From Escherichia coli (GTDB lineage Bacteria > Pseudomonadota > Gammaproteobacteria > Enterobacterales > Enterobacteriaceae), in the NCBI RefSeq assembly GCF_013122565.1, contig NZ_CP053258.1: a stretch of 64,000 nt of DNA. The stretch is one strand, 5' to 3'. Each line of letters begins with the position of its first letter. Position 1 is the stretch's first letter. Positions 14,919 through 36,398 of the stretch are shown here, in pieces. The translations under genes and the position numbers were made by a program. A model generated the notes under the pieces. It was not told the DNA's origin and ran no database searches. It saw only the letters and a list, made by a program, of their open reading frames with translations.

Positions 14919-14930
14919 TAGCCATCTTCG

Positions 14931-14971
14931 TTCACGTTGTCGCCGTTATGGCGACAACGTGAATTATTTAT
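14931..14971 (+). terminator. Intrinsic terminator after lepB
   Basis: Perfect 14-bp inverted repeat ttcacgttgtcgcc/ggcgacaacgtgaa (loop gttat) followed by TTATTTAT. Confidence 0.8.
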
Positions 14972-15062
14972 GAGATAAATCTCCCGTGGCTAACGACATC
15001 CCCCGTCGTTGTGTATAGAATATTCCCCCGAAGTTTAAGGTTGGCACCTCCAGGTTGCCACG

Positions 15063-15156
15063 GCACACGAAACAGCGTTGGTCCCCATATACCGGTAAAC
15101 TGAAACTGCAGCGAAGCAGTTAGCAGAACCATGTATATCAGGTCTGTTTCGTGTGC
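15063..15156 (+). promoter_or_regulatory. rnc leader long-range hairpin (likely the RNase III autoregulatory processing site)
   Basis: Perfect 13-bp complement gcacacgaaacag (15063-15075) / ctgtttcgtgtgc (15144-15156) closing an approximately 94-nt structured 5' UTR element ending 34 nt before the rnc ATG. Confidence 0.6.
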
Positions 15157-15159
15157 TGA

Positions 15160-16772
<1,613 letters not shown>

Positions 16773-18635: not shown

Positions 18636-18654
18636 AAAAATACCGTTCTCTTTA

Positions 18655-18727
18655 TAAAGTAAAACCCCCGAACTGGTAAGGAACGGGGGTTTTACTTTAT
18701 TTTGTGCAGCACGCACCCTCAATGAGG
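18655..18727 (-). ncRNA. ohsC: OhsC antitoxin sRNA of the ShoB/OhsC type I toxin-antitoxin pair (ends approximate)
   Basis: Known to be encoded divergently upstream of shoB. Minus-strand RNA from about 18727 would begin with a 20-22-nt segment complementary to the shoB 5' UTR (18952-18973) and end at the bidirectional terminator; a CATAAT -10-like hexamer sits just upstream on the minus strand. Boundaries are inferred, not measured. Confidence 0.45.
18661..18700. terminator. Bidirectional intrinsic terminator (acpS on plus strand, candidate OhsC 3' end on minus strand)
   Basis: Perfect 10-bp stem aaaacccccg/cgggggtttt with 13-nt loop, flanked by A- and T-runs on both sides. Confidence 0.8.
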
Positions 18728-19635: not shown

Positions 19636-20484
19636 TCAGACCAGTTTTTTCACCAGCGCTTCACTATGACGAATACGTTCTGGTGCCAGTTCCAGATCCT
19701 GCTGAATCAGCGCAATGAACAGCAAATCCGTTAACATTCCCTGCGCGTGACAAGCAGAGATTGAAGCACTGTTTGTCGCTTGTTCTTCGGCAATGGTATA
19801 CAGGCAATGAGAAGCACGCTGTTGCAGGGCATTGGGAGTAAAGCCGGTAATCGCCAGCACTTTTCCGCCCACTCGCAGCATCTCATCTGCTGCCAGGTTT
19901 AACTCGCGTCGTACACCGGTGTAAGAAATGGCTAATAACAGATCGTCAGGGGACGACGCCTGTACGGTAGCGAGTAGCGCATGCATATCGCGCACTGCGG
20001 CAGCATTGAAGCCAATCTTCATCAGCTTCCAGGCAAAGTTTTGCGCCACCAGACCCGAAGCGCCAATACCGGTCAGAATTATCCGCCGCGCAGAGCGCAA
20101 CATTGTTACGCATTCATGCAGTTTCTCTTCACTATTAACGTTTAGCGTTGCGTACATAGCGGCAGTATTTTCTTTAATCAGTTTTTCGCCGACCAGCCGT
20201 AACGGATCATCACCGCGGATTTGGTTATGAATGGGCACGGAGGGAGATTCCGGCTGGCTTGCCAGCGCTTCACTCAATGCTAACTTAAGCGCCGGAAAAC
20301 CTTTATAGCCGAGTTTTTGTGCGAACTTCACGACGCTGGACTGACTGACTCCGGCTTCGTTGGCCAGTTGCTGAGAGCTTAAATGGCGCGCCGTATCAGG
20401 TTGTAGCAGCAGATAATCCGCCAGTTTTTTATCACTCTGGGCAAGCCCCTGGTAACGCTGACGGATACGAAGTAAGCCGTTCAT
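19636..20484 (-). CDS. yfhH: RpiR/MurR-family transcriptional regulator (HTH plus SIS domain)
   Basis: ORF track 19636..20556; start at 20484 (MNGLLRIRQRYQGLAQSDKKLADY...) gives 282 aa. Confidence 0.88.
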   Translation of the reverse strand: MNGLLRIRQRYQGLAQSDKKLADYLLLQPDTARHLSSQQLANEAGVSQSSVVKFAQKLGYKGFPALKLALSEALASQPESPSVPIHNQIRGDDPLRLVGEKLIKENTAAMYATLNVNSEEKLHECVTMLRSARRIILTGIGASGLVAQNFAWKLMKIGFNAAAVRDMHALLATVQASSPDDLLLAISYTGVRRELNLAADEMLRVGGKVLAITGFTPNALQQRASHCLYTIAEEQATNSASISACHAQGMLTDLLFIALIQQDLELAPERIRHSEALVKKLV

Positions 20485-35204: not shown

Positions 35205-36398
35205 TCAAATCTGTCGTAACTGCGTCTCAACATACAAATAGCCAATTCCCAGCACCTGTTGTGCGCGGCTTAATTGCCCGAAGCCAATTTGCGTCGCTTT
35301 CACGCTCGGTCCTTCGTCGCGGTCGAACGGGTTAAATCCTGTCTGGCGAATAATGGTATTAAGCCAGTGCTCACCAAAGGCACAACTGCGACCGTACAAC
35401 CAAATCTGATTAATATTGAGGATGTTGAGGAAGTTATACAGACTCAAACCAATGGCATTGGCACTGCGGTCAACCCAGCTGGTGATCCACGGTTCTCCAC
35501 TCTGCCAGGCAGCGATTAACTGCGCGGTTGTCAGTTTTTCAGGATCAAGTTGAGTATTAACCGGTTGTGATTTTAGCCATACCCGCGCCTGTTTTTTTAA
35601 TGCACTTAACGAGGCGACGGTTTCCAGGCAGCCGTAACGTCCACAGTCGCAGACGACGCCATCCGTATTAACGATGGTGTGACCAATCTGTCCGCTACCA
35701 TACAAACTGCCGCGATAAATTTGCTCGTTAATCACGAACGACGAGCCAATGCCGTAATCAACGTTGATCACGCAGAAATCCCGTTCCTGCGAATTATTTT
35801 GCCATTTTTCCGCCAGCGCCAGCATCACGCAGTCATTATCGACCATCACCCGAATGCCCAGCTTCTCTTCCAGCAGATATTTCACCTCAACCGGCGTTGT
35901 CCACGGCGCTTGCGGCATGGTTTGCGACACTCCAGTCACTGGATCAACCTGACCGTGGATTGCCAGCGCCAGATTGATGGTGCGGTCCGGCCACAATTTA
36001 CGGTGGCGATGCCAGCATTTTTCGATTTCGGACAGCAGCGCCTGCGGCGTCGGTGCATCAATCTGTAAATACTCAAATTCACCTTTCGGACTTAAACAAG
36101 CATTAGCAACCTGACACTCAATACTGGTGGGCGTCACGTTCAGGCACAGCGTCCAGTCACCTTCCGGCGCAATCAGCCATGTACCGCTACTATGCCCGCG
36201 CGTCTGGCTTTCATCGTCGATATTCACCACCCGTTTTTCGCTTTCCAGTTCCTGCAAAATATTACTGACTGCCGGAATCGAAATTTGCGCCAGCCGGGCC
36301 AGCGTTGATTTATTGGCGCGCTTTTGCCGGTACAGCAGTTCCAGAATCACGCATTTGTTATGGTGGCGAATCTGTTGATTGTTAATGCAGGCTCTCAT
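35205..36398 (-). CDS. yphH: ROK-family (NagC/Mlc-like) transcriptional regulator
   Basis: ORF track 35205..36404 (399 aa); N-terminal HTH, ROK sugar-kinase-like fold with Cys-rich zinc motif CDCGRYGC. Start set at the second Met (36398) on remembered length; this is uncertain. Confidence 0.85.
   Translation of the reverse strand: MRACINNQQIRHHNKCVILELLYRQKRANKSTLARLAQISIPAVSNILQELESEKRVVNIDDESQTRGHSSGTWLIAPEGDWTLCLNVTPTSIECQVANACLSPKGEFEYLQIDAPTPQALLSEIEKCWHRHRKLWPDRTINLALAIHGQVDPVTGVSQTMPQAPWTTPVEVKYLLEEKLGIRVMVDNDCVMLALAEKWQNNSQERDFCVINVDYGIGSSFVINEQIYRGSLYGSGQIGHTIVNTDGVVCDCGRYGCLETVASLSALKKQARVWLKSQPVNTQLDPEKLTTAQLIAAWQSGEPWITSWVDRSANAIGLSLYNFLNILNINQIWLYGRSCAFGEHWLNTIIRQTGFNPFDRDEGPSVKATQIGFGQLSRAQQVLGIGYLYVETQLRQI

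What the first reader, a model, noticed from the sequence alone, without database searches (positions are those of the whole stretch)
15063..15156. Long-range perfect 13-bp pairing in the rnc leader
gcacacgaaacag and ctgtttcgtgtgc, 68 nt apart, would close an extended stem-loop ending 34 nt before the rnc start codon. This fits the known autoregulation in which RNase III cleaves a structure in its own 5' UTR.
Basis: partly seen in the sequence, partly recalled or inferred. Interest (0 to 1): 0.25.

Follow-up and report, generated by a model that had tools for sequence, protein, structure and literature searches.

The report
Known RNase III self-regulation hairpin (rncO)
The 13-bp pairing is real and forms the base of the long central hairpin of rncO, the well-known structure in the E. 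coli rnc mRNA leader that RNase III cuts to limit its own production, so this is an ordinary, already described feature.

Summary
GCACACGAAACAG (15063-15075) and CTGTTTCGTGTGC (15144-15156) are perfectly complementary and 68 nt apart. Two flanking pairs extend the helix to 15 bp (15061-15075 / 15144-15158). The window is E. coli lepA-lepB-rnc-era-recO, and the lepB-rnc intergenic region is identical to K-12 MG1655. Rfam RF00552 (rncO) matches 15030-15244 end to end at 258.8 bits (gathering score 43). In 73 distinct Enterobacteriaceae leaders the helix is always present: 11 of the 13 pairs never change and one swaps A-U for C-G. The spacing between the arms ranges from 17 to 92 nt, which argues for an RNA structure rather than a DNA site. 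Reviews confirm that RNase III cleaves this 5' UTR hairpin and that RNase E-dependent decay follows. The exact published cut positions could not be read, because the primary papers are not held. One side result: most genera carry a compact 47-50-nt hairpin, and E. coli's 56-nt apical domain is a lineage-specific expansion. Verdict: already known, low interest.

The parts
14993..15021 (+). rnc operon sigma-70-type promoter: -35 ACGACA (14993-14998), 17-nt spacer, -10 TAGAAT (15016-15021)
   Evidence: Consensus scan, 9 of 12 matches. TAACGACAT and TATAGAAT are conserved in all leaders long enough to include them. Consistent with a TSS at 15030.
15030..15244 (+). rncO, the complete cis-regulatory leader element: 160-nt 5' UTR plus the first 55 nt of rnc
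   Evidence: Rfam RF00552 at 258.8 bits against a gathering score of 43, E 1e-61, model positions 1-214 of 214. The 5' UTR is stated to be nt 1-160, which puts +1 at 15030.
15042..15060 (+). Stem-loop I (7 bp, 5'-proximal hairpin)
   Evidence: Rfam consensus and MFE of 15040-15190. Five of 7 pairs change on both sides across 73 leaders.
15061..15075 (+).
   Evidence: Pair probability 0.93-1.00. Conserved in 73 leaders.
15076..15143 (+). Upper part of stem-loop II: 2x2 internal loop (15076-77 / 15142-43), conserved UUGG/UCAG helix (15078-81 / 15138-41) and a lineage-specific apical domain (15082-15137)
   Evidence: Fold. UUGG/UCAG pairs are kept in 71-73 of 73 leaders for three of the pairs and 66 of 73 for the fourth. 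The apical domain is absent in most genera and of unrelated sequence in Raoultella and Phytobacter.
15144..15158 (+).
   Evidence: Leader nt 129 (15158) is the end of the RNase III-cleavable reporter fragment.
15159..15189 (+). Conserved A/U-rich linker between stem II and the rnc start codon, predicted largely unpaired. G-N-A-U-U at 15158-15162 is a candidate RNase E entry site (inference).
   Evidence: Unpaired in the Rfam consensus and in the centroid fold. Highly conserved columns. The RNase E role comes from reviews; the specific motif is my inference.
15190..15870 (+). rnc coding sequence (RNase III, 226 aa); its stop overlaps the era start at 15867
   Evidence: ORF list. RefSeq annotation of identical E. 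coli sequence.
15210..15229 (+). Stem-loop III (8 bp, inside rnc codons 7-14)
   Evidence: Rfam consensus. 95.7% of cells paired but no compensatory change, and conservation is confounded by coding constraint.

Best explanation
The two 13-mers are the core of the 15-bp lower helix of stem-loop II of rncO, the post-transcriptional 'operator' in the 5' leader of the E. coli rnc-era-recO mRNA. Transcription starts at about 15030. The nascent leader folds into stem-loop I (15042-15060) and then the long irregular stem-loop II (15061-15158), which this helix closes. While the leader is intact, these 5' structures protect the mRNA. When free RNase III is plentiful it binds stem-loop II as a double-stranded RNA substrate and cleaves it. 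That removes the protective 5' structures and leaves a monophosphorylated, unstructured 5' end, which RNase E attacks, so rnc and era expression fall. When RNase III is occupied by abundant substrates such as pre-rRNA, less leader is cut and more enzyme is made. Shown here: the helix exists, dominates the fold, is conserved, and belongs to rncO. Taken from the literature: the cleavage and the decay pathway. Inferred: that the cut lies in or at the top of this 15-bp helix.
For: Rfam RF00552 matches full length at 258.8 bits, with these arms as model positions 32-46 and 114-128. The MFE and centroid folds use the helix, z = -3.0. All 15 pairs have probability 0.93-1.00 in five contexts, up to 671 nt and including read-through from lepB. 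The sequence is identical to K-12 MG1655 across the intergenic region and present in 5425 of 5426 complete E. coli genomes. In 73 distinct leaders from about 25 Enterobacteriaceae genera the stem II core is 97.5% paired, against 31-47% for slid controls. One pair switches between C-G (37) and A-U (29), and the arm spacing varies from 17 to 92 nt while complementarity is kept. G.U and U.G pairs are valid only for the + strand RNA, and the minus strand scores only 23.9 bits. All 14 tested homologous loci hit rncO at 150-231 bits. Literature: cleavage of the 5' UTR hairpin followed by RNase E decay; nt 1-129 is sufficient for RNase III cleavage in vivo.
Against: Twelve of the 19 core pairs never vary, so covariation support for this particular helix rests on a single compensatory pair, and invariance alone does not prove pairing. 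The exact cleavage nucleotides were not verified. The MFE of the isolated 215-nt element replaces stems I and III with long-range pairing, although stem II is unchanged. A 13-bp inverted repeat somewhere in a shuffled 64-kb window is not rare (14%).
Confidence: 0.96

Rival explanations
1. A chance inverted repeat with no function.
For: Shuffled windows contain at least one perfect 13-mer inverted repeat within 150 nt in 14% of trials.
Against: It is conserved in all 73 distinct leaders across about 25 genera despite 17-92 nt of variable spacer. It shows a compensatory A-U/C-G swap, matches a curated family at 258.8 bits and has pair probabilities of at least 0.93.
Confidence: 0.01
2. A DNA-level element: a palindromic operator for a dimeric DNA-binding protein, or a cruciform, controlling rnc transcription.
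For: Both arms are strongly conserved in sequence, not just in complementarity (11 of the 13 pairs invariant), as expected for a sequence-specific binding site.
Against: The distance between half-sites ranges from 17 to 92 bp between genera, which is incompatible with one dimeric DNA-binding geometry. The element lies 32-129 nt downstream of the TSS. The flanking G.U, and the U.G/G.U pairs of the UUGG/UCAG extension, are valid only in + strand RNA. [quoted passage not shown]
Confidence: 0.01
3. An intrinsic terminator or attenuator hairpin that prematurely stops transcription ahead of rnc.
For: It is a very stable hairpin (-40.9 kcal/mol arm to arm) in a 5' leader.
Against: No U-tract follows the 3' arm (CUGAAUUGUUGAC). 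The terminator scan finds only the lepB terminator at 14930-14964. At 98 nt, stem II is far larger than an intrinsic terminator hairpin.
Confidence: 0.01
4. The helix acts mainly as a 5' stabiliser, a structural barrier to RNase E and 5'-end-dependent decay. RNase III cleavage occurs in the upper, lineage-specific part of stem II rather than in this helix.
For: From memory of Matsunaga 1996 (not re-read), the intact leader structures stabilise the mRNA when RNase III is absent. E. coli has enough additional duplex above the 2x2 loop to host a site.
Against: Most genera lack the upper domain entirely yet keep the 15-bp helix almost invariant. There the only duplex long enough for RNase III, about 21 positions against the roughly 24 of canonical in vivo sites, is dominated by this helix. 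A cut above an intact 15-bp duplex would leave the new 5' end base-paired, which conflicts with the 'unstructured 5' end' described. This rival refines the best explanation rather than replacing it.
Confidence: 0.15

Closest known systems
rncO (Rfam RF00552; Matsunaga, Simons & Simons 1996, RNA 2:1228; Bardwell et al. 1989, EMBO J 8:3401)
   Same: The same element: identical sequence to K-12, full-length model match, same position upstream of rnc, same three stem-loops.
   Different: Nothing differs for the E. coli sequence. What this analysis adds is that across Enterobacteriaceae the conserved core is a compact hairpin of about 47-50 nt, and the E. coli apical domain is one of at least three sequence-unrelated expansions. 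I could not check whether this has been published.
RNase III site in the rpsO-pnp leader (PNPase autoregulation)
   Same: RNase III cleaves a long 5' leader hairpin and cleavage starts rapid decay of the downstream mRNA.
   Different: A different gene and an unrelated sequence. In pnp the regulator proper is PNPase acting after the RNase III cut, whereas in rnc the cutting enzyme is itself the regulated product.
Phage T7 R1.1-type RNase III processing signals
   Same: Irregular hairpins of about two helical turns, interrupted by an internal loop near the scissile bonds. The compact rncO form (15 bp, 2x2 loop, 4 bp, loop) has this overall shape.
   Different: T7 sites mature and often stabilise mRNAs, while rncO cleavage destabilises. 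No sequence relationship was tested.
rne 5' UTR (RNase E autoregulation)
   Same: A ribonuclease senses its own free activity through a structured element in its own 5' UTR and adjusts the decay of its own mRNA.
   Different: A different enzyme (single-strand-specific RNase E), a different structure, and no sequence or structural homology.

Membership tests
rncO (Rfam RF00552) | Covariance-model score at or above the curated gathering score (43 bits), over the full model | tested here: met
   258.8 bits, E 1e-61, model positions 1-214 of 214, window 15030-15244, + strand.
rncO (Rfam RF00552) | Located in the 5' leader of rnc, starting at the rnc operon transcription start and running into the first codons of rnc | tested here: met
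   rnc ATG at 15190 in the lepB-rnc-era context. A 160-nt 5' UTR puts +1 at 15030, where the model match starts. A promoter-like site lies at 14993-15021.
rncO (Rfam RF00552) | Three stem-loops (I, II, III), with II a long irregular hairpin | tested here: met
   CM alignment. Stem II forms in every fold, P at least 0.93. Stem I is supported by covariation (5 of 7 pairs). Stem III is 95.7% paired but lies in coding sequence. Caveat: the MFE of the isolated 215-nt RNA replaces I and III with long-range pairs.
rncO (Rfam RF00552) | Stem-loop II is cleaved by RNase III in vivo and in vitro | not testable with these tools
   Literature on the identical K-12 sequence: the hairpin in the 5' UTR is cleaved, and a reporter with nt 1-129 is cleaved in vivo. 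Nucleotide positions were not retrievable.
rncO (Rfam RF00552) | Cleavage lowers rnc-era mRNA stability (negative autoregulation) | not testable with these tools
   Stated, citing Bardwell 1989 and Matsunaga 1996.
Canonical E. coli RNase III hairpin substrate | About two helical turns of mostly paired duplex (11 + 2 + 11 positions around a 2-nt staggered cut) | tested here: met
   E. coli stem II has 15 bp, a 2x2 loop, and then 5 bp, 5 bp, 3 bp, 3 bp and 6 bp helices separated by small loops and bulges. Compact forms have about 21 positions. The geometry is from Altuvia 2018.
Canonical E. coli RNase III hairpin substrate | Base-pair preferences at the proximal, middle and distal boxes, and G-C/C-G between the two cuts | not tested
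   The scoring matrix (Altuvia 2018, Fig. 5 and Table S4) is not held as text, so no position could be scored.

The most novel reading that the evidence does not exclude
The E. coli form of rncO stem-loop II is not the ancestral or typical one. Its tip would have been expanded independently at least three times (Escherichia/Citrobacter/Salmonella, Raoultella, and Phytobacter/Kosakonia sp. S29) and partly lost again (C. youngae L005). Such expansions could alter how RNase III docks and so set a different autoregulatory set-point in each lineage. The near-invariance of the helix sequence, while the adjacent stem I covaries freely, would then reflect sequence-specific recognition by RNase III, or use of the 3' arm as the RNase E entry site after cleavage.
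Probability: 0.3. Interest if true: 0.3.

Novelty: already known. Interest (0 to 1): 0.08.

Why it matters
This is the textbook case of a ribonuclease measuring its own free activity through a structure in its own mRNA, and it also sets the level of the essential GTPase Era. Confirming it here adds no new biology for E. coli. It does show that the first-stage reader recognised a real regulatory RNA from sequence alone. That points to the lower helix as the place to look for recognition determinants, and it suggests a minimal natural substrate for RNase III studies.

Tried and rejected
**Cleavage nucleotides.**
- Matsunaga 1996 (PMC1369450), Bardwell 1989 (PMC401487), Court 2013 (PMC6311387) and Hauk 2023 (by DOI) are not held.
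- Altuvia 2018 Table S2, which lists the rnc sites, and the supplements of the rnc fitness-landscape paper are not held as text.
- The Gordon 2017 supplements list no rnc-leader site.
- A whole-word search for 'rncO' mostly returned isocyanate (RNCO) chemistry.
- The p19 dsRNA-capture paper does not mention the rnc leader.

**Predicting the cut from the in vivo rules.** I did not score stem II against the Altuvia rules, because the position matrix exists only in a figure and a supplement.

**Other readings rejected.**
- Terminator or attenuator: there is no U-tract.
- DNA operator: the half-site spacing is variable and the wobble pairs are RNA-only.
- Minus-strand RNA: 23.9 bits, below the gathering score, and explained by the near-symmetry of a hairpin.
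- The 92-aa minus-strand ORF 14968-15246 has nothing to support it.
- The mir-2001 match at 14931-14963 (20.1 bits against a gathering score of 74) is just the lepB terminator hairpin.

Full report
**Observation.** The window around the finding reads ...CACGGCACACGAAACAGCGUUGG...AUCAGGUCUGUUUCGUGUGCUGAAUUG.... The two 13-mers lie at 15063-15075 and 15144-15156. They are perfectly complementary with 68 nt between them (pair I5). The rnc ATG is at 15190, 34 nt beyond the last arm base. Two more pairs, G15062.U15157 and C15061-G15158, extend the helix to 15 bp.

Length alone is only mildly unusual. Dinucleotide-preserving shuffles of the 64-kb window give a mean of 0.24 perfect 13-mer inverted-repeat seeds within 150 nt, and 14% of shuffles have at least one. 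Only two other non-palindromic repeats of this class occur in the real window. Both are terminator-like hairpins directly 3' of genes: lepB at 14931-14963 and acpS at 18654-18700.

**Context.** The ORFs are lepA, lepB, rnc, era, recO, pdxJ and acpS. The 401 nt around the finding are 100% identical to many E. coli genomes and occur in 5425 of 5426 complete genomes, between lepB and rnc. The lepB-rnc intergenic region plus the first 60 nt of rnc is identical to K-12 MG1655, so the published K-12 experiments apply to this exact sequence. A promoter-like site lies at 14993-15021 (ACGACA, 17 nt, TAGAAT), and a terminator-like hairpin follows lepB at 14930-14964. A recent paper gives the rnc 5' UTR as nt 1-160, which places +1 at 15030.

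**Identity.** A scan against Rfam gives RF00552, rncO, at 15030-15244 on the + strand: 258.8 bits against a gathering score of 43, E 1e-61, covering model positions 1-214 of 214. Stem-loop I is 15042-15060, and stem-loop III is 15210-15229, inside the first codons of rnc. The minus strand scores 23.9 bits, below threshold, which is simply what a near-symmetric hairpin gives.

The MFE and centroid folds of 15040-15190 both use the helix (-50.6 kcal/mol, z = -3.0, no shuffle as stable). Partition-function calculations give each of the 15 pairs a probability of 0.93-1.00 in five contexts: the 160-nt UTR, the 215-nt element, +1 to +371, +1 to +671, and a read-through transcript from lepB. The arms are therefore not captured by alternative local helices. 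Before the 3' arm has been transcribed, the 5' arm forms only a weak local hairpin. In the isolated 215-nt RNA the MFE replaces stems I and III with long-range pairs, but stem II is unaffected.

**Comparative evidence.** Using the RNase III protein as the query, so that the leader itself played no part in selection, I fetched 80 Enterobacteriaceae rnc loci. They give 73 distinct leaders. The 15-nt arms are found in all of them. On alignment A1 the stem II core (15 bp plus the UUGG/UCAG helix) is 97.5% paired, against 31-47% for the whole 34-pair structure when the 3' partners are slid by 1-3 columns.

- Twelve of the 19 core pairs never vary.
- Pair A15074-U15145 alternates between C-G (37 sequences) and A-U (29), with 7 C.U intermediates.
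- Pair 15062/15157 is G.U (60), A-U (8) or unpaired (5).
- Three positions tolerate a single mismatch in 5-9 sequences.

Covariation support for this helix is therefore thin, resting on one compensatory pair. The adjacent stem I, in contrast, covaries freely, with 5 of 7 pairs changed on both sides. The near-invariance of both arms thus reflects strong constraint, not lack of divergence.

The arm-to-arm distance is 17-22 nt in most genera, 34 in one Citrobacter youngae, and 58-92 in others. Complementarity kept across so variable a spacer, together with wobble pairs that are valid only on the + strand, argues for an RNA helix and against a DNA site. Rfam's rncO model recognises all 14 representative loci tested at 150-231 bits, including the compact forms.

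**Mechanism.** The held literature agrees on the pathway. [quoted passage not shown] This creates a monophosphorylated, unstructured 5' end that RNase E recognises, and the message decays. Titration of the scarce enzyme by abundant substrates such as pre-rRNA relieves the repression. A guide-RNA reporter carrying rnc leader nt 1-129 is cleaved by RNase III in vivo.

I could not retrieve the nucleotide positions of the cuts. Matsunaga 1996, Bardwell 1989, Court 2013, Hauk 2023 and the relevant supplements are not held.

My inference is that the cut lies in or at the top of the 15-bp helix, for two reasons. First, compact-form species have about 21 duplex positions in total, 15 of them in this helix, against the roughly 24 positions (11 + 2 + 11) of canonical in vivo sites. 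Second, a cut above an intact 15-bp duplex would not leave the 'unstructured' 5' end described. This step is inferred, not shown.

**Comparison with known systems, and novelty.** This is rncO itself, not a relative of it. Every feature of membership that can be tested here is met, and the functional features are documented for the identical K-12 sequence. The finding is already known.

The one thing that may add to the record is comparative. The typical enterobacterial stem-loop II is a 47-50-nt hairpin: 15 bp, a 2x2 loop, UUGG/UCAG, and a loop of about 5 nt. The apical domains fall into at least three groups:

- The E. coli, C. amalonaticus and C. sedlakii domains are related to each other (z = 6-9).
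- The Salmonella and C. freundii-complex domains are weakly related to those (z = 2-5).
- The Raoultella (79 nt) and Phytobacter/Kosakonia sp. S29 (62 nt) domains are unrelated to them and to each other (z below 3).

Whether these expansions change regulation is unknown. I could not check whether this has been described before.

**Verdict.** The feature is already known, and interest is low.

Noticed in passing
window 15082-15137; loci L001-L080 at about 1340-1470: The apical part of rncO stem-loop II is highly plastic. The arm spacing is 17-22 nt in most genera (a compact hairpin) but 58-92 nt in Escherichia/Citrobacter/Salmonella, Intestinirhabdus, Raoultella and Phytobacter/Kosakonia sp. 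S29. At least three of these insert classes are unrelated in sequence.
   Followed up: partly
L005 against L006 (both named Citrobacter youngae): The arm spacing is 34 nt in strain CCUG 30791 but 63 nt in ATCC 29220, an apparent recent partial deletion of the apical domain within one named species.
   Followed up: no
window 15158-15162: G-N-A-U-U directly 3' of stem II (G invariant; A, U, U at least 90% conserved in 73 leaders) fits the RNase E RN|WUU preference as I recall it from Chao et al. 2017. It is a candidate RNase E entry site after the RNase III cut. Untested.
   Followed up: no
window 14930-14964: A 16-bp perfect hairpin with a 3-nt loop and a TATTTAT tail, 12 nt after the lepB stop codon. 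It is the likely lepB terminator, upstream of the rnc promoter. Rfam's weak mir-2001 match here is spurious.
   Followed up: partly
window 18654-18700: A 17-bp perfect inverted repeat (ATAAAGTAAAACCCCCG / CGGGGGTTTTACTTTAT, 13-nt loop) lies 19 nt after the acpS stop. It looks like a terminator, possibly bidirectional.
   Followed up: no
L069 (CACSKA010000009.1): The record is titled 'Chryseobacterium sp. 18061' but encodes an RNase III 97% identical to E. coli's, with a typical enterobacterial rncO leader. The assembly is probably contaminated or mislabelled.
   Followed up: no
L075 3109-3200 (Klebsiella oxytoca): Rfam RF02902 (AaHKsRNA22, Aggregatibacter sRNA 22) matches at 48.5 bits (gathering score 39.8) just downstream of era. 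In E. coli era and recO are only 11 nt apart.
   Followed up: no
L022 about 1385-1400 (Enterobacter sp. BIGb0383): A 9-nt insertion, in a locally divergent stretch just after the predicted transcription start, is unique among the 73 leaders.
   Followed up: no
window 14968-15246, minus strand: A 92-aa ATG ORF lies antisense to the whole rnc leader. Nothing supports it and it is most likely spurious.
   Followed up: no
window 19909-19926 and 35753-35772: Two 15-16-nt near-perfect palindromes (TCGTACACCGGTGTA.. and CGTAATCAACGTTGAT..) were reported by the repeat scan. They were not examined.
   Followed up: no
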